Shown here: one piece after another, positions 1,326 through 34,555 of the stretch
Layout: every line of letters starts with the position of its first letter
How positions within the stretch are numbered: the stretch's first letter is position 1
Sequence record: PZ583739.1
Strand: one strand, 5' to 3'
Length of the DNA: 64,000 bases
Source: a phage
The notes under the pieces: generated by a model
What the model was told of the DNA's origin: nothing
The model's input: the letters and a program-made list of their open reading frames with translations, nothing else
The model's database searches: none
Position numbers and translations under genes: made by a program

Positions 1326-1663
1326 TTCCACCACCTCTTTTTCATTTTAATCTTATCAATTTCATCTTGTATTTGCATTGTAACACACTTTTCTACATGC
1401 ACAGCAAGCTCCGCTTTGCGGTCTTCGGAAGGGGTGCCGAAATCAACTGAAACTTTTCCAGATGGTTCAATTTTAATTCCGGTTACGTACACAATGTGAC
1501 TGGACCCATCAGGGAGTGATAACAGAATTTCCTGTCGTACAGTTCCCATGGATTGCCGGATAATCTCCAAACTTTTTTCGTAGTAAGGTACAGAAGGAGC
1601 CTTAGCTCCCTCCGCATCTTTCTCGAAATTATCTAAATCAGATAAATCGATATCATTCATCAA
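1319..1663 (-). CDS. 40: gp40-like small protein (head vertex assembly factor in T4), 114 aa
   Basis: Position between uvsX and 41 as in T4; size matches; sequence identity not verified. Confidence 0.5.
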   Translation of the reverse strand: MMNDIDLSDLDNFEKDAEGAKAPSVPYYEKSLEIIRQSMGTVRQEILLSLPDGSSHIVYVTGIKIEPSGKVSVDFGTPSEDRKAELAVHVEKCVTMQIQDEIDKIKMKKRWWKW

Positions 1664-2831
1664 GGTCTTCCATCATATCTAAATCGTTTTCGATATCTGC
1701 AGCGGACGGTTTTGTCTTACCTTCAGGAGCAGAGTATTTTTCAACCTTGGAGGCAATAAGCGCATCAACTTCGGCATCAACAACAGCATTGCTATCGATT
1801 GCACCCAGTTGGTAATGGCGTTTGATTGCATCACGGAAAGGTTCGTGTTTAAACAGCGGCCCCCAGAATTCGGTGCAGTTAGTATCTTTTGCGCGCCATG
1901 ATTTTTCTTCGCGGACCATTTCCCCGGTCTCAACATCAAGATATTCACGGTTATACCAACCAACTTTTGGTTTAACCACAAATCCGATTTCTATTGCCAT
2001 ATCAAGCAGGCCAGAATACGGGTCAATACCGCCATCGAATTTTACATCAATGAAGAATTTACTTTTCTCTTTGACCATACGAGATTTTTCGGCGTTCAGA
2101 ACAAATTGGAAGCCTTCAAGTTCTTTACCAGTTTCTTTAATCTGACGTTTACCGATAATGAATACAGTGTCCGCGGAATACATAACACCTGTGCCACCGG
2201 TCATAACGGTTTTACTGTACATCTCAATCGTCTCGATTGTATGGTTAACCGCGACACAAGGAATATCCTTGATACTAAAATAAGGGGTAACAATACGGAA
2301 CAGAGATTTCAGGGATTTAGCACGAGTCATATCGCCAACGACTTTTTCGTTCATCGCATCTTCTGTTTCTTTTTTCGACGCCATGTTACCGATTGAGTCA
2401 ATAAAGATAATGACTTTTTCACCACGCTCAATTGCTTCAAGCTGGTTAACCATATCAACTTTCAATTGTTCAACCGACTGGATTGGTGTATGGATAACAC
2501 GCTCCGGGTCTACTTTCATTGCACGAAGATATGCTTCTGTGATACCAAATTCTGAATCATAGAACAAACAGATTGCGTCGGGGTATTTGTTCATATATGC
2601 AGAGACCATCGTTAAACCCATATTGGATTTAAAGTGTTTTGACGGACCAGCAAAAATAGTCAAACCTGACTGCATACCACCATCTAGTGCACCGCTGATT
2701 GCAATGTTCAGCATCGGGATTTTTGTACGAACTACATCTTTATCATTAAAGAACTTGGACTTGGTAAGAGTCGCAGTCATTTTGGATGTAGAAGCTTTAA
2801 TCAAACGGGATTTCAAATCTGCAATAGACAT
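1653..2831 (-). CDS. uvsX: UvsX recombinase (RecA/Rad51-like)
   Basis: 392 aa; MSIADLKSRLIKASTSKMTA...GLTIFAGPSKHFKSN (Walker A)...near-collinear with T4 UvsX over full length. Confidence 0.96.
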   Translation of the reverse strand: MSIADLKSRLIKASTSKMTATLTKSKFFNDKDVVRTKIPMLNIAISGALDGGMQSGLTIFAGPSKHFKSNMGLTMVSAYMNKYPDAICLFYDSEFGITEAYLRAMKVDPERVIHTPIQSVEQLKVDMVNQLEAIERGEKVIIFIDSIGNMASKKETEDAMNEKVVGDMTRAKSLKSLFRIVTPYFSIKDIPCVAVNHTIETIEMYSKTVMTGGTGVMYSADTVFIIGKRQIKETGKELEGFQFVLNAEKSRMVKEKSKFFIDVKFDGGIDPYSGLLDMAIEIGFVVKPKVGWYNREYLDVETGEMVREEKSWRAKDTNCTEFWGPLFKHEPFRDAIKRHYQLGAIDSNAVVDAEVDALIASKVEKYSAPEGKTKPSAADIENDLDMMEDLDE

Positions 2832-2884
2832 TCATTTTTTCCATAGGCACCATTATATTTTTCTCACAGGTTTAAGATAGGATA

Positions 2885-2911
2885 ATTATATCACTGTATT
2901 TTCAGAGCAAT
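2885..2911 (-). promoter_or_regulatory. Candidate MotA-dependent middle promoter upstream of uvsX
   Basis: Minus strand reads TTGCTCTGA (MotA-box-like) then 11 nt then TATAAT. Confidence 0.3.
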
Positions 2912-3173
2912 TAACGATTGAATCCACGATTAATTGCACGTTCAACAATCTTCCGGGTCTGACGTTTGTCCCACCAGTACATAAAACCAATACCAAATGC
3001 AGACAACAGCCATAGGCTAATCAATAACATACCAATCATAATATTCTTCTCGCAGTTCAGAGCAATTTAGTAAACGTTACCACGTTTCCAGTTTTCTTCA
3101 TTCAAATGCTTATTACGCTTTTCTAATAGCAACAAACCAATTACTGTTACAACAATCAGAAGTAATAATAACA

Positions 3174-3677
3174 TCAGTTAATACCTTGGCGTGCTTTCTC
3201 TTTAGCCACACATTTATTAATATAGCTCAGACGGTTTTGAGCAGAACGCTGATACATATCGCGGTACTCATTAGCTTTTGGAGAACCCGTCTCCGCTGCC
3301 TGATAAGCTTCTGCGCGCATGATGTTTATCTGCATATTGATATATGACATGCAGACCTGTGAAATCTGGTTAACAGTATCCAGGTCATTTTGTCGCTTAG
3401 TTTCTGCTTCCAGCTTGGCAATGATTTCGTCATGCTTCGCAGCTTGCTCGCGTTTGTACTCAATTTCTTGTTGAGCATATTTCGCGCAGTTGTTTCCACA
3501 TTGATTGTTGTCGCGTTTGTAGATAAGTCCAGTACCGCCTTTGAAATCAAAGGAACCATTATGCACCTGACGGTCTGCAGCAATTCGCGCTTTACCAATC
3601 TCGTTGGCATTAACAACATCACCCTGGTAAGCACAACCAGATAGCAGCATAACAGCTGCGATAGCTAACTTTTTCAT
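3174..3677 (-). CDS. Predicted lipoprotein, 167 aa
   Basis: N-terminus MKKLAIAAVMLLSGC (signal peptide + lipobox); RBS GAGGAAA upstream of ATG at 3677; ORF-track start at 3704 is a longer extension. Confidence 0.55.
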   Translation of the reverse strand: MKKLAIAAVMLLSGCAYQGDVVNANEIGKARIAADRQVHNGSFDFKGGTGLIYKRDNNQCGNNCAKYAQQEIEYKREQAAKHDEIIAKLEAETKRQNDLDTVNQISQVCMSYINMQINIMRAEAYQAAETGSPKANEYRDMYQRSAQNRLSYINKCVAKEKARQGIN

Positions 3678-3827
3678 TGTATTTTCCTCAATTAAAACAT
3701 TCATAGCGGGCTTGGAGCCCCAAAAATACCCAACCCAAAATTAAAGTTGGAATCATATGCGGAGTCATTATTGCCCAATAGATTGACATACTAAAAAATG
3801 CAATCAGTACAATAATTGTAATTATCT

Positions 3828-4070
3828 TCATTTTGCTTCCTTGATGATAATTACTTGTGCGTTTGATTTACGTTCAGCAACGAGTGCCCAGATAAATGCA
3901 ATAAACCATCCGACCATTGTCCAACCTAACAGGAGGTTAACAAAGAAGATTCCACAATTACTTTTGGTACCACGCAGCAGCGCGATAATCCACGGCAGAA
4001 AATATGCCAGTGCAGCCAGGAAGAAAGAACCCGCACCAAGAACAACAGTACCCGCAATTAATGTTTCCAT
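3828..4070 (-). CDS. imm: Small two-TM membrane protein, Imm-like by position (superinfection immunity)
   Basis: 80 aa, two hydrophobic helices, lies immediately upstream of gene 43 where T4 imm lies; homology not verified. Confidence 0.45.
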   Translation of the reverse strand: METLIAGTVVLGAGSFFLAALAYFLPWIIALLRGTKSNCGIFFVNLLLGWTMVGWFIAFIWALVAERKSNAQVIIIKEAK

Positions 4071-4139
4071 TTTAATATCCTTAAGTTATTCATCAGTTGA
4101 TGAGGTAATCATACGGCAATCCATTGCCGTTGTAAACAC

Positions 4140-6854
4140 TTAAAAGTCAAACATATCAAAAAGAGTTGCTTTCTTTTCGTAATCAACCTTTGCAGCTTCA
4201 GAGAAACCTGTTAATGGCTTAACAAAAGTCTTCTGGAACAGTATGTTGTAGTCCATCCACTGCAGAACCTGGTCACGGATTTCAATCGGGAGTTCAATCC
4301 CAGATGGCCATGCAATCACGGTTTCACCAAACGGGTTACCGACTTTAAGAGGAAGTACATACACCTTTTCCCCTTCCATGATTTGTGGAACAGTCTTCAG
4401 ACCTTTAGTTGCACGCATATATGCAAGCACACCTTTGATATGAGCCGGGCACTTAAATCCAGGGAAACCGCCTTCATTATATTTCTGGATGTTGTTAACC
4501 GATGATACACCTGCGATGGTCATGTAGTTAAGCTCATTAAATTCCTTATTGAATTCCTTGAAGTATGTCTGCAGAGATTCTTCACCTTCTTGCAGCATAC
4601 GGCGGATACATTCTTTCAGAGCTTTCTGACATGCCTTTGGAGTACTCGACTTTTGAGTTTCCAGACCCATGATTTTCAATTTCGGAACAGCATATCGTGT
4701 GCCTTCCATATCGTACACGTTCAGTGCATAACGCTTCTTCGCCGTCCAGAATCCACCCACACCCTTAGAACCCAGCGGAGGACATGCAATCGCTTCACGG
4801 TCCATAAACATAAGGTGCTGTTTGTTGTTCATGTATTCAGCCAGCTCACGGAAAGCTTTATCGATTGCCGGTTCCAGACGGTCTTTCGCAAACTTGTCCA
4901 TGAAGTCAACCAGGTGGTTTGTATCACGGAATTTAGATTCGCCACCAACCTTTTTAATCAGGTTATCGCACTGGATATAAATGGAGTCAGTATCGCCATA
5001 GAACACATAAGTTTCGCCGCTTGTCCCACAGACACTATCGAAGTATTCGTTAACTTTACGCTCAATCCACTGCAATGCAAGTTGTCCGAAAGATGTAATC
5101 GCGGTTGCATTTCGCAGGTCAAAGTAACGGAACCAGATATTGCCCAGAGCGCCATAACAACTGTTGATAAGCAGTTTACGGTTAATCTGTGCGGTCATGC
5201 CTGCAACTTCTTCCATCTGCGCTTTGTACAACATACCATTCAGGACTGTTTGATTCAGACCATGCAGGGCCGTTTTCATATTGTCATCAAAGTCATGACG
5301 ATAATCAACTTCTGGTTCGGTTGTGCCAGTTCCTGGATTACGCAGAGCTTCCTTAATCAGTTCACCATTACGTTGAGCCGCAAGCATATAGCCTTTGTGC
5401 TCTTTACGCTGATTAAACACCTTGGTGACTTCTGTCGGAATAATACCCGCAACATCTTTAAAATACATCATACCATTTGGAGCACAACTAAATGTATCAG
5501 ATGGACGGTCAGCAGTTCCTGCGATGTATTCATACATCGGCGCTGGGGCAAATGAACCGGCAATCGTTTCTGGACTGATATTAATCTGTCGGATGATGCT
5601 TGGATACAGAGATGTTAAGTCACAGCTCATCACATATTTGTACGCGTTCGGAATAGGTTCCTTAACAAATGCACCAGGGAACGATTGACGAACATGCGAT
5701 TTGGTTTCCGGAATGACTTTGTTTTGAGTCTTCAGGCTGTTAAAGATAATCGCATCCCAAGTTTTGATTGGGCTGAATACAGACTGAATCTGCATTTTTG
5801 CGTAATAACCCATTGACTGACTCAGGTTAATAAACTGCCGCTTACGGTCAATCTGCACAACACGATAAACGTCGATGATGTTATAAGAAATATACCGCTG
5901 GTGATTTGATTCACGCAGTTTAGAAATCGGACCATCATACGGGAGTTTACCAACACCCAGTTCAGATTCCGCAACATAATCCAACGAATAAGACGGTTGG
6001 TTTGTGAAGCTGAACTTTTTATACAGGTCCAGATAATCCAGAACAGAGATACCCAGAATCTGAATGATTTCTTGTTCTTCACCAAAGCCGTTGTTAATGA
6101 CCTTAACTTTTGTACGACGATGTGGGCTCAGACGTTTTGCCGTAGCTTCACCAAATACATTTTTAAGACGGTTGTAGATATATGGAATATCAAACTTCTC
6201 GATGTTCCAACCGGTTAACATAACCGGAGTTTTCTCGTTCCAGAATACCAAATACTGCTGGAGCATTTCTTCTTCTGAATCGAAAGCCATATAAACAATT
6301 TTTTCCAGGATTTCTTCAGGGACTTCATCACCACCGTCTTCCTGCAGCTTAGCAGCAATATCAATAGACCATTGCTCCACAGTGGCGTATGGTGAGCCCA
6401 AAAGGTCAAAGACATAGAATTTATCGTCTACCGAATCATAGTGCGTCAGGGCATCAATAGGGTGACGTGCTTCAGACGGTTCAGGGAACCCATCAGGAGA
6501 TGTCACCTCGATATCGAAGTTAGCAACACGGATTTTACTTGAATCATATTTGATTTCGTGTGGGTAACGGTCGGACAAGTATGCGAGTTTAAAGTCATCC
6601 ATACCCATAACTTCGAGGCCCATGTCATTCATTCGCTTCATCCACTGGGATGCATCACGCATGGAATCGAATTCTTTTTTCACACAACCTTTATTATAGA
6701 TGTCTGTATACTTTGCAGCCTGGCCTTCCCGGGCGTGCATAAACAAGCATGGGGCATAAGGGATTTCACGAACACGTTCATGACCATTCTTGTCAATATA
6801 TCGTTCGAGTAGGTTGTCACCGATTTGTTCGATAGTTAAATAAAATTCTTGCAT
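4140..6854 (-). CDS. 43: DNA polymerase gp43 (family B, with 3'-5' exonuclease)
   Basis: 904 aa; exo motifs FDIEV, Pol motifs DLTSLYPSII, KLLINSCYG, YGDTDS; C-terminal ...KKATLFDMFDF as in RB69/T4 gp43. Confidence 0.98.
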   Translation of the reverse strand: MQEFYLTIEQIGDNLLERYIDKNGHERVREIPYAPCLFMHAREGQAAKYTDIYNKGCVKKEFDSMRDASQWMKRMNDMGLEVMGMDDFKLAYLSDRYPHEIKYDSSKIRVANFDIEVTSPDGFPEPSEARHPIDALTHYDSVDDKFYVFDLLGSPYATVEQWSIDIAAKLQEDGGDEVPEEILEKIVYMAFDSEEEMLQQYLVFWNEKTPVMLTGWNIEKFDIPYIYNRLKNVFGEATAKRLSPHRRTKVKVINNGFGEEQEIIQILGISVLDYLDLYKKFSFTNQPSYSLDYVAESELGVGKLPYDGPISKLRESNHQRYISYNIIDVYRVVQIDRKRQFINLSQSMGYYAKMQIQSVFSPIKTWDAIIFNSLKTQNKVIPETKSHVRQSFPGAFVKEPIPNAYKYVMSCDLTSLYPSIIRQINISPETIAGSFAPAPMYEYIAGTADRPSDTFSCAPNGMMYFKDVAGIIPTEVTKVFNQRKEHKGYMLAAQRNGELIKEALRNPGTGTTEPEVDYRHDFDDNMKTALHGLNQTVLNGMLYKAQMEEVAGMTAQINRKLLINSCYGALGNIWFRYFDLRNATAITSFGQLALQWIERKVNEYFDSVCGTSGETYVFYGDTDSIYIQCDNLIKKVGGESKFRDTNHLVDFMDKFAKDRLEPAIDKAFRELAEYMNNKQHLMFMDREAIACPPLGSKGVGGFWTAKKRYALNVYDMEGTRYAVPKLKIMGLETQKSSTPKACQKALKECIRRMLQEGEESLQTYFKEFNKEFNELNYMTIAGVSSVNNIQKYNEGGFPGFKCPAHIKGVLAYMRATKGLKTVPQIMEGEKVYVLPLKVGNPFGETVIAWPSGIELPIEIRDQVLQWMDYNILFQKTFVKPLTGFSEAAKVDYEKKATLFDMFDF

Positions 6855-33888: not shown

Positions 33889-34272
33889 TTACTCTAGTGT
33901 TAACAGATACTTAGTCTGAAAGAAAACTCCAACGATATCGTCCAGAGTCGATTGAATAGCCTTGGGTACAACTTTATAGACTCTTTCCGAGCTTTTAATC
34001 ATTTCATCTAAAAACAAAATTGTATCTTTCGGCAAGTCCGAGGCGGACGGTAATGCAGCTTTGTATTGTTTCCCGCTGTAACCTAACCATTGCTCACTGA
34101 ACTGGTCGAGTGGACCTTGGATTTCTGTGAAGTAGAAATCATAAGCTTTATGGCGGGCGTAACTTTTGGTTTCAAGATGGGCGGACTTAAAATAAGCCAA
34201 AGAGACTAACAACCACCCAATATATGAATCCACCTCAGACCCACGACCCGTTACGAAATCATCAAATTTCAT
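33889..34272 (-). CDS. Hypothetical protein, 127 aa
   Basis: ORF downstream of rI. Confidence 0.4.
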   Translation of the reverse strand: MKFDDFVTGRGSEVDSYIGWLLVSLAYFKSAHLETKSYARHKAYDFYFTEIQGPLDQFSEQWLGYSGKQYKAALPSASDLPKDTILFLDEMIKSSERVYKVVPKAIQSTLDDIVGVFFQTKYLLTLE

Positions 34273-34555
34273 CTTCCAATTTTACCTTCATTAATTTAGC
34301 GTACTCTCTCGCCGCAGCTTTACCATCGCTTTTGCAGGTAATTTCAGTTTCGCATTGGCTTTTGTTGTTCCATTCAGTCTTGATAAACGCCCAGAACTGT
34401 TCGGATTGGTGCACGCTTGGTTCTTTGAATTGCGAATAAATCTTCATCGCACTATCTGCATATTGGGTAAACTTCCCATCTGTTGCAGAGGACAGATTTG
34501 GACCTAAACAGCCCAGGATTATTAGACTTAATGAAAGTCCTCGAATAAGGTCCAT
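34262..34555 (-). CDS. rI: RI lysis-inhibition antiholin-like periplasmic protein
   Basis: 97 aa; N-terminal signal/anchor, then SEQFWAFIKTEW...C...C...YAKLMKVKLEDEI resembling T4 RI; adjacent to tk as in T4. Confidence 0.6.
   Translation of the reverse strand: MDLIRGLSLSLIILGCLGPNLSSATDGKFTQYADSAMKIYSQFKEPSVHQSEQFWAFIKTEWNNKSQCETEITCKSDGKAAAREYAKLMKVKLEDEI

What the first reader, a model, noticed from the sequence alone, without database searches (positions are those of the whole stretch)
3174..4070. Lipoprotein next to the Imm-like gene, a candidate superinfection-exclusion pair
A predicted lipoprotein (signal peptide plus lipobox LSGC) sits beside a two-TM protein at the position of T4 imm. 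T4 blocks superinfecting DNA with the membrane protein Imm and the periplasmic protein Sp. A cell-envelope lipoprotein here could be an analogous or additional exclusion factor.
Basis: inference. Interest (0 to 1): 0.4.

Follow-up and report, generated by a model that had tools for sequence, protein, structure and literature searches.

The report
Phage lipoprotein linked to the imm gene
A T4-like coliphage encodes a real but uncharacterised cell-envelope lipoprotein. A lipoprotein gene sits next to the superinfection-immunity gene imm in every imm-carrying relative sampled, T4 included, so it is a reasonable but untested exclusion candidate, not a new kind of system.

Summary
On the minus strand, between DNA polymerase gene 43 and uvsX of a Gaprivervirus (VR7/SP18-like T-even phage), lie:
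- imm (3828-4070; Pfam Imm_superinfect, E = 1e-17)
- a conserved 47-aa two-TM gene (3688-3831)
- a 167-aa lipoprotein gene (3174-3677; MKKLAIAAVMLLSGC, with a GAGG ribosome-binding site 8 nt upstream)

The lipoprotein belongs to phrog_1754 (function unknown), the same PHROG as T4 gene imm.1.

A lipoprotein gene lies within one gene of imm in all six imm-bearing genera sampled:
- T4: 43-imm.1-imm.
- Gelderlandvirus and a Klebsiella phage: this same family occupies the imm.1 slot.
- Mosigvirus: the lipoprotein and imm sit together beside sp, at a different place in the genome.

T4 imm.1 is early at both RNA and protein level.

But this is T4's own overlooked imm-neighbour class, not an extra factor. 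It is not an Llp/Cor-type receptor mask: two phages with unrelated fibre tips carry 98%-identical copies. Winklervirus and Kanagawavirus keep the lipoprotein with no imm nearby. No function has been shown. Fold and family searches gave nothing informative.

The parts
4108..4136 (-). Promoter-like site between gene 43 and imm (GTTTACA, 17 nt, TATGAT). It would drive the five small genes downstream.
   Evidence: 10 of 12 consensus matches. The number of such sites in the region is no higher than in shuffled sequence, so this is only a candidate. From my own knowledge, the GTTTAC -35 element resembles T4 early promoters. No convincing terminator lies between here and uvsX.
4113..4130 (.). Perfect 8-bp palindrome (ACGGCAAT GG ATTGCCGT) inside the promoter spacer, just after the gene 43 stop codon.
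   Evidence: Read directly from the sequence. Function unknown.
3828..4070 (-). imm: 80-aa two-TM superinfection-immunity protein.
   Evidence: Pfam PF14373 at 1e-17; phrog_1039 at 1.9e-30; 53% identity to T4 Imm; annotated imm in VR7, SP18 and RZ.
3688..3831 (-). 47-aa two-TM protein. Its start overlaps the imm stop codon (ATGA).
   Evidence: phrog_3610 at 7.6e-27. Conserved at 51-60% identity in T4 (an unannotated ORF between imm and 42), JS10, Kanagawavirus and Winklervirus.
3174..3677 (-). 167-aa lipoprotein precursor. Shine-Dalgarno GAGG at 3686-3689; lipobox LSGC at 3633-3644, with Cys15 at 3633-3635. The mature protein is 152 aa with Cys60/Cys64 and Cys109/Cys156.
   Evidence: phrog_1754 at 6.6e-47. 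Lipobox invariant across the family. The Cys pairs are all-or-none: 28 sequences have both and 10 have neither for C60/C64, and 37 of 38 have both for C109/C156. In the AF2 model the C-terminal helical hairpin (about residues 65-165) is confident and the N-terminus is not. Some GenBank records annotate it 'lipoprotein'.
3067..3174 (-). 35-aa single-TM ORF. Its start overlaps the lipoprotein stop codon (TGATG).
   Evidence: Annotated in phages 212 and RZ. Absent from VR7 and EAWsc9. No family match.
2911..3039 (-). 42-aa single-TM ORF, the last small gene before uvsX.
   Evidence: Identical (100%) in VR7 and phage 212, and absent from EAWsc9.

Best explanation
The ORF at 3174-3677 (minus strand) encodes a genuine phage lipoprotein.

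Inferred route, from the sequence and from established E. coli rules: the protein is exported by Sec, lipidated at Cys15, and sorted by Lol to the inner leaflet of the outer membrane, because residue +2 is Ala and not Asp. It would then expose a periplasmic domain that carries two disulfides and ends in a long alpha-helical hairpin.

It is the Gaprivervirus representative of the lipoprotein gene that accompanies imm in enterobacterial T-even phages, the slot filled in T4 by imm.1. It is probably transcribed early as one unit with imm, a conserved 47-aa two-TM protein and two tiny membrane ORFs.

The most likely role (inferred, untested) is as an accessory envelope factor of the superinfection-immunity locus. 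It would act in the periplasm at a step that does not depend on the receptor: tail-tube passage or DNA transfer by secondary T-even phages, or protection of the envelope from their attack. It would not act by masking a receptor.
For: Shown:
- Lipoprotein signal with a Shine-Dalgarno sequence, conserved across the family.
- No Asp at +2 in any of the 43 lipobox-bearing sequences.
- All-or-none Cys pairs, implying an oxidising compartment.
- A confident C-terminal helical hairpin.
- A small family: only 23 clusters (at 50% identity) among 1.84 billion representative sequences. Every source I could identify is a T4-like phage.

Linkage to imm:
- T4: 43-imm.1(lipoprotein)-imm-47aa-42.
- Gelderlandvirus and Klebsiella phage M198: 43-lipoprotein-imm-42. 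Here the lipoprotein scores 73 and 68 bits against this family's HMM.
- Gaprivervirus and Dhakavirus: 43-imm-47aa-lipoprotein.
- Mosigvirus: dmd-lipoprotein-imm-sp, at a different genomic place.

Other support:
- The window protein and T4 Imm.1 both match phrog_1754 over their full length (6.6e-47 and 6.1e-43).
- T4 imm.1 is classed early RNA and early protein, like sp (PMC9697503 supplements).
- The genes are tightly packed with overlapping stop and start codons, behind one promoter-like site.
Against: - No experiment exists for any member. I found no paper reporting a function for imm.1. One paper merely asserts a link to exclusion (PMC5885020).
- Homology to T4 Imm.1 is unproven. There is no Pfam DUF5481 hit. 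The hhalign probability of 93% drops to 0.9% once signal peptides are removed. With a deeper alignment it reaches only 14-31%, although the alignment is collinear and places both C-terminal Cys in register.
- Winklervirus CHI14 keeps the lipoprotein, the 47-aa gene and sp, but has no imm anywhere in a 26-kb stretch covering both usual sites. Kanagawavirus and PM2 loci have no imm within 6 kb.
- Between VR7 and this window, imm is 86% identical but the lipoprotein is 98%, so the two do not co-vary.
- The 43-42/uvsX interval is a variable region that collects small membrane genes, so part of the linkage could simply be positional.
- Fold searches returned only generic helical bundles.
Confidence: 0.4

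Rival explanations
1. Llp/Cor-type receptor mask: the lipoprotein binds the outer-membrane receptor used by this phage and blocks adsorption of related phages, or of progeny to cell debris.
For: It is a phage-encoded, probably early, outer-membrane-sorted lipoprotein, as T5 Llp and Cor are (own knowledge; the T5 work is PMC9586334, listed). There is a weak PHROG hit to Cor (phrog_1119, E = 0.022), but it covers residues 1-17 only, which is the signal peptide.
Against: - VR7 has a T4-type gp37 tip with a gp38 chaperone, while RZ has a gp38 adhesin. Their fibre tips show no detectable similarity (E = 0.87 and 4.8).
- Yet their lipoproteins are about 98% identical.
- No other Gaprivervirus appears among the 60 best matches to the VR7 tip, which are instead phages lacking this family.
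- The gene is not next to the fibre genes.
- Three relatives have swapped the lipobox for a plain signal peptide.
Confidence: 0.08
2. An envelope or lysis-timing factor unrelated to exclusion. Examples: modulating lysis inhibition, stabilising the envelope of the infected cell, or countering a host envelope stress or defence response.
For: It is periplasmic, disulfide-stabilised and probably early. It is retained with the 47-aa protein where no imm is nearby. In T4, imm and sp mutants themselves alter lysis inhibition (PMC6832632).
Against: - There is no similarity to RI, RIII or holin families.
- The rI-like lysis-inhibition gene lies elsewhere in the genome.
- This idea does not explain why the lipoprotein moved together with imm to the sp neighbourhood in Mosigvirus.
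Confidence: 0.22
3. The linkage is positional only. The interval after gene 43 is a recombination-tolerant dumping ground for small early membrane genes, and the lipoprotein has some unrelated or dispensable role.
For: - The content of the interval varies widely. It holds 42 and beta-gt in T4, arabinose-5-P or heptose isomerases in Dhakavirus, Kanagawavirus and Winklervirus, and tiny ORFs that come and go among Gapriverviruses.
- Metagenomic variants have mosaic N- and C-terminal halves.
- imm and the lipoprotein do not co-vary.
Against: In Mosigvirus the pair lies outside this interval yet stays together. The lipoprotein is kept in every genus sampled, in three arrangements. Its lipobox and Cys pattern are under clear purifying selection.
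Confidence: 0.22
4. The outer-membrane half of a spanin (o-spanin), or a unimolecular spanin, acting in lysis.
For: It is a phage lipoprotein with periplasmic cysteines and helices.
Against: - VR7, SP18, VR20, VR25, VR26, JS98 and JS10 already have T4-type PseT.3/PseT.2 spanins (PMC6139136).
- There is no adjacent i-spanin gene and no C-terminal TM segment.
- It sits in an early gene block, and the T4 counterpart is expressed early.
Confidence: 0.02

Closest known systems
T4 gene imm.1 product (UniProt P18057; Pfam DUF5481, PF17578), of unknown function
   Same: - Both are lipoprotein precursors. T4 Imm.1 starts MKIAILVIALGLAGC|VAQGPVVNQSDVGK; the window protein has ...LSGC|AYQGDVVNANEIGK.
- Both match phrog_1754.
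- Both lie within one gene of imm, just after gene 43.
- Both end in a helical hairpin with one Cys in each helix.
- Imm.1 is early, and the window gene is probably early.
   Different: - The window protein gives no Pfam DUF5481 match.
- Similarity in the mature part is not significant.
- The window protein is 42 aa longer and has a GTGxxYxR..NQCGxNC block that T4 lacks.
- In T4 the gene lies upstream of imm. Here it lies downstream, after the 47-aa gene.
Lipoproteins in the imm.1 slot of Gelderlandvirus (Salmonella phage NP4) and Klebsiella phage M198
   Same: They are clear members of the window protein's own family (73 and 68 bits). They keep the lipobox and the C109/C156 pair.
   Different: They lie between gene 43 and imm, as T4 imm.1 does. 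They lack the C60/C64 pair. The Gelderlandvirus copy also lacks the N-terminal helix, while the Klebsiella copy keeps the QGD.V...VG motif.
T5 Llp and the Cor proteins of T1, phi80 and N15 (receptor-blocking exclusion lipoproteins)
   Same: Small phage-encoded outer-membrane lipoproteins, made in the infected or lysogenic cell, that act on the envelope.
   Different: There is no sequence or fold similarity beyond the signal peptide. The gene is not next to the receptor-binding genes and does not track them.
T4 Spackle (Sp, gp61.3)
   Same: An early, exported periplasmic protein of the T-even exclusion repertoire. In Mosigvirus the genes are contiguous: lipoprotein-imm-sp.
   Different: Sp is a soluble 75-aa mature protein that inhibits gp5 lysozyme (PMC7677548). 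It is unrelated in sequence, and VR7-type phages carry their own sp.

Membership tests
Bacterial-type lipoprotein (signal peptidase II substrate) | Positively charged n-region, uncharged h-region, and lipobox [LVI][ASTVI][GAS]C with the Cys at position 15-35 | tested here: met
   MKKLAIAAVMLLSGC has K2 and K3, an uncharged h-region, L-S-G-C, and Cys15. The lipobox is invariant in homologues.
Bacterial-type lipoprotein (signal peptidase II substrate) | Start codon upstream of the lipobox, with a ribosome-binding site | tested here: met
   ATG at 3677 with GAGG 8 nt upstream. All homologues start at the equivalent MK.
Bacterial-type lipoprotein (signal peptidase II substrate) | Actual diacylglyceryl modification and cleavage; outer-membrane sorting (no Asp at +2) | not testable with these tools
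   Residue +2 is Ala here, and it is never Asp in 43 relatives. That predicts outer-membrane sorting under the E. coli rule, but lipidation itself needs labelling or a globomycin experiment.
phrog_1754 (PHROG family of unknown function) | Significant full-length match to the family HMM | tested here: met
   6.6e-47, residues 1-161 against profile positions 2-147 of 148.
T4 Imm.1 / Pfam DUF5481 (PF17578) | Match to the Pfam HMM at or above the gathering score | tested here: not met
   No DUF5481 hit at E <= 10 for the window protein or four relatives, whereas T4 Imm.1 scores 239 bits and the Mosigvirus protein 37 bits.
T4 Imm.1 / Pfam DUF5481 (PF17578) | Profile-profile homology of the mature domains | tested here: inconclusive
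   93% probability with signal peptides and 0.9% without. With 38 sequences the alignment is collinear over 111 columns, E = 9e-5 to 0.002, probability 14-31%. The BFVD search with the Imm.1 model found only a 146-aa Citrobacter phage lipoprotein (family membership not checked), at E = 0.34.
T4 Imm.1 / Pfam DUF5481 (PF17578) | Lipoprotein gene within one gene of imm | tested here: met
Imm superinfection-immunity protein (Pfam PF14373), for the neighbouring gene at 3828-4070 | HMM match above the gathering score; two hydrophobic segments; gene located after gene 43 | tested here: met
   64.2 bits against a cut-off of 27.9; 53% identity to T4 Imm; gene order shown.
Llp/Cor receptor-blocking exclusion lipoproteins | Sequence or fold similarity to Llp or Cor | tested here: not met
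   The Cor PHROG hit (E = 0.022) covers residues 1-17 only. No Llp or Cor match appeared in the PDB or BFVD fold searches.
Llp/Cor receptor-blocking exclusion lipoproteins | Gene linked to, and co-varying with, the receptor-binding protein | tested here: not met
   The fibre genes are more than 100 kb away in VR7. The fibre tips of VR7 and RZ are unrelated while the lipoproteins are about 98% identical.
Spanin (o-spanin or u-spanin) | Partner i-spanin gene or C-terminal TM segment; no other spanin in the genome | tested here: not met
   There is no C-terminal TM segment. Gapriverviruses and Dhakaviruses are listed with PseT.3/PseT.2 spanins (PMC6139136).
Superinfection-exclusion factor (functional class) | Reduced plating or DNA entry of secondary phage when the gene is expressed | not testable with these tools
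   Needs experiments. None were found in the literature.

The most novel reading that the evidence does not exclude
The imm locus of T-even phages may be a three-part module that spans the envelope: an outer-membrane lipoprotein (Imm.1 class), Imm, and the conserved 47-aa two-TM protein. The lipoprotein would be the missing periplasmic partner that explains how Imm keeps superinfecting DNA out of the cytoplasm. The T4 mechanism, still unresolved, would then have been studied with only one of its components.
Probability: 0.15. Interest if true: 0.6.

Novelty: new member of a known kind. Interest (0 to 1): 0.33.

Why it matters
How T4 Imm blocks DNA entry is still poorly understood ('less easily understood' than Sp; PMC6832632). 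If the lipoprotein that travels with imm is part of that machinery, a two- or three-gene reconstitution becomes an obvious and cheap experiment. Exclusion between therapeutic T-even phages in cocktails could then be predicted from these genes. If it is not part of that machinery, this is one more conserved early envelope protein of unknown function, and the record should simply read 'lipoprotein, Imm.1-like'.

Tried and rejected
- Family scans. Pfam, NCBIfam and PADLOC scans of all five small proteins gave nothing for the lipoprotein. Weak FerB, DUF553 and T6SS-lipoprotein hits were rejected as noise or signal-peptide matches.
- Sequence search of solved structures. Only a tropomyosin coiled coil at E = 4.3.
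- Homology to T4 Imm.1. Tested with an HMM, with hhalign with and without signal peptides, and with a structure search. It remained inconclusive. The high hhalign probability turned out to be driven by the signal peptide.
- Receptor co-variation. Tested and rejected.
- Spanin role. Rejected on published spanin assignments.
- IMG/VR scan. It returned only 13 loci, mostly the same isolates.
- Literature. Searches for imm.1, Gaprivervirus lipoprotein and JS98 lipoprotein found no functional data.
- Whole-genome check for imm in Winklervirus and Kanagawavirus. Not done. Only 26 kb of CHI14 and +/-6 kb of the other loci were scanned.

Full report
**What the window is.** The region is 94-98% identical to Gaprivervirus genomes such as TH44, phage 212, RZ, VR7 and SP18. 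The interval between DNA polymerase gene 43 (4140-6854, minus strand) and uvsX (1653-2831, minus strand) holds five tightly packed minus-strand ORFs:
- imm, 3828-4070
- a 47-aa gene, 3688-3831, whose start overlaps the imm stop codon (ATGA)
- the lipoprotein gene, 3174-3677
- a 35-aa ORF, 3067-3174, whose start overlaps the lipoprotein stop codon (TGATG)
- a 42-aa ORF, 2911-3039

All five products are predicted membrane or envelope proteins. The one promoter-like site upstream of the block (GTTTACA, 17 nt, TATGAT; 4108-4136) lies between gene 43 and imm. A second weak match (9 of 12) lies at the imm/47-aa junction. The only terminator-like hit lies inside the 47-aa coding sequence and is at chance level.

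**Checking the observation.** The ORF listed by the tool starts at 3704. The ATG at 3677 has a GAGG 8 nt upstream and gives MKKLAIAAVMLLSGC|AYQGD... Most annotated relatives and all homologues start there.

The lipobox pattern alone is not rare. It matches 6 of 1665 start/ORF combinations in the window, mostly on the wrong strand. What makes it convincing is conservation: L12, G14 and C15 are invariant in homologues down to 22-30% identity, and 43 family and imm.1-class sequences keep a lipobox.

The neighbouring gene is a true Imm. It scores 64 bits against Pfam PF14373 (cut-off 27.9) and is 53% identical to T4 Imm. The one correction to the finding is that a 47-aa gene separates the two.

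**The protein.**
- Residue +2 is Ala, and none of the 43 relatives has Asp there. Under the E. coli Lol rule (established knowledge), the protein should be tethered to the inner face of the outer membrane.
- Three relatives have replaced the lipobox with a plain signal peptide. The working part is therefore periplasmic, and the lipid anchor is not always needed.
- The mature protein has two cysteine pairs that are kept or lost together. For C60/C64, 28 sequences have both and 10 have neither, with none having just one. For C109/C156, 37 of 38 have both, and the exception is a fragment. This points to two disulfides, and hence an oxidising compartment.
- The AF2 model (pLDDT 72.7) is confident only for a long C-terminal helical hairpin, about residues 65-165. 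The N-terminal third, including the invariant GTGxxYxR..NQCGxNC block, is poorly modelled.
- Pfam, NCBIfam and PADLOC gave nothing meaningful.
- The only family match is phrog_1754, function unknown (6.6e-47).
- The family is small. There are 23 clusters (at 50% identity) among 1.84 billion representative proteins. It was found in 115-122 phage records, all of them T4-like phages of Enterobacterales.

**The key comparison.** T4 has a gene, imm.1, between gene 43 and imm. Its product starts MKIAILVIALGLAGC|VAQGPVVNQSDVGK. It is therefore also a lipoprotein, with a motif after the Cys like the window protein's AYQGDVVNANEIGK. It also matches phrog_1754 over its full length (6.1e-43). In Pfam it is DUF5481.

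Homology of the mature parts is not proven:
- The window protein does not hit DUF5481.
- The hhalign probability of 93% collapses to 0.9% once signal peptides are removed.
- A 38-sequence alignment of mature regions gives a collinear alignment over 111 columns that places both C-terminal cysteines in register. The probability is only 14-31%, with E = 9e-5 to 0.002.
- The AF2 model of a T4-like Imm.1 also ends in a confident helical hairpin with one Cys per helix. A structure search did not connect the two families.

**Gene context is clearer than sequence.** The arrangements found are:

| Phage group | Gene order |
|---|---|
| Tequatrovirus (T4) | 43 - imm.1 lipoprotein - imm - 47aa - 42 |
| Gelderlandvirus NP4, Klebsiella phage M198 | 43 - lipoprotein - imm - 42 |
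| Gaprivervirus, Dhakavirus | 43 - imm - 47aa - lipoprotein |
| Mosigvirus p000v | dmd - DUF5481-type lipoprotein - imm - sp |
| Winklervirus, Kanagawavirus, PM2 | 43 - lipoprotein - arabinose-5-P isomerase - 47aa; no imm nearby |

- In Gelderlandvirus NP4 and Klebsiella phage M198, the gene in the imm.1 slot is a clear member of the window protein's own family (73 and 68 bits).
- In Mosigvirus, imm is not after gene 43 at all. The pair has moved together and sits beside the other exclusion gene, sp.
- A lipoprotein gene therefore lies within one gene of imm in all six imm-bearing genera sampled, in three different arrangements.
- The exception is Winklervirus, Kanagawavirus and PM2. They have no imm within 6 kb. 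In CHI14 there is none in 26 kb covering both usual sites, although sp is present.
- The 47-aa protein is also conserved, at 51-60% identity. This includes an intact T4 ORF between imm and 42 that RefSeq does not annotate.
- T4 imm.1 is classed early at both RNA and protein level, in the same class as sp (PMC9697503 supplements).

**Testing the obvious mechanism.** If the lipoprotein masked the phage's own receptor, as T5 Llp does, it should track the receptor-binding module. It does not.
- VR7 has a T4-type gp37 tip with a gp38 chaperone. RZ, in the same genus, has a gp38 adhesin.
- Their fibre tips show no detectable similarity.
- Their lipoproteins are about 98% identical.
- The best matches to the VR7 tip are phages that lack this lipoprotein family.

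A spanin role is excluded because these phages already have PseT.3/PseT.2 spanins (PMC6139136). VR7 also has its own sp, so the lipoprotein is not a replacement for Sp.

**Verdict.** The lipoprotein is real. I place it as the Gaprivervirus form of the lipoprotein that travels with imm, the T4 imm.1 class. It remains untested, and three facts weaken it: the lipoprotein persists where no imm is nearby, it does not co-vary with imm (86% against 98% identity between VR7 and this window), and the interval is variable.

The best-supported mechanism is an accessory, receptor-independent role in the periplasm within the superinfection-immunity locus (confidence about 0.4). This is a new member of a catalogued but uncharacterised family, of modest interest. 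The interest would rise if the lipoprotein, Imm and the 47-aa protein proved to work as one module.

Noticed in passing
window 3688-3831 (-); T4 NC_000866 26230-26367 (L009 4731-4868, -): The 47-aa two-TM protein after imm is conserved at 51-60% identity in T4, Dhakavirus, Kanagawavirus and Winklervirus. The T4 copy is an intact ORF (MKSKIIAALLLILMIIISIYYSVTVPLMIPTIILGWSLLLLQVKYECIN) that overlaps the imm stop codon, but it is not annotated in the T4 RefSeq record. VR7's annotators call it gp42.1.
   Followed up: partly
window 3067-3174 and 2911-3039 (-): Two tiny single-TM ORFs (35 and 42 aa) downstream of the lipoprotein come and go among near-identical Gapriverviruses. The 35-aa ORF is absent from VR7 and EAWsc9, and the 42-aa ORF is absent from EAWsc9. 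This explains the 81-92% coverage classes seen in the DNA search.
   Followed up: partly
window 4113-4130: A perfect 8-bp palindrome (ACGGCAAT GG ATTGCCGT) sits inside the spacer of the promoter-like site, just after the gene 43 stop codon. It has no T-run, so it is not a classical terminator. It could be an RNA processing or stability element.
   Followed up: no
window 2832-4139 compared with T4 (L009): The 43-uvsX interval here lacks gene 42, beta-gt and segA, which fill it in T4. In Dhakavirus, Kanagawavirus and Winklervirus the same interval carries sugar-phosphate isomerase genes (arabinose-5-P or phosphoheptose isomerase).
   Followed up: no
L011 (VR7, record 155454-159167) compared with L012 (RZ, record 166326-127): Two phages of one genus have swapped whole receptor-binding modules. 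VR7 has a T4-type gp37 tip with a 181-aa gp38 chaperone. RZ has a gp38 adhesin. The two show no detectable similarity.
   Followed up: yes
alignment A2 (P0002, P0003, P0007 against the window protein): Metagenomic variants of the lipoprotein are mosaic. P0002 differs from the window protein mainly at residues 20-70 and P0003 mainly in the C-terminal half. P0007 is close to it only over roughly the first half (76% identity over 47% of the query); its C-terminal half is divergent. This suggests recombination between the two halves.
   Followed up: no
public records: PSD2001, vB_YenM_P8 and vB_EcoM_FB (lipoprotein gene); NC_000866 imm.1: These look like annotation errors. The lipoprotein is labelled 'capsid and scaffold protein' in three records, and T4 RefSeq labels imm.1 'iduronate sulfatase'.
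   Followed up: no
window 34262-34555 (-): A second ORF with a lipobox-like N-terminus (MDLIRGLSLSLIILGC...; 97 aa) lies in the vs/tk neighbourhood. It was not checked for conservation or for a ribosome-binding site.
   Followed up: no
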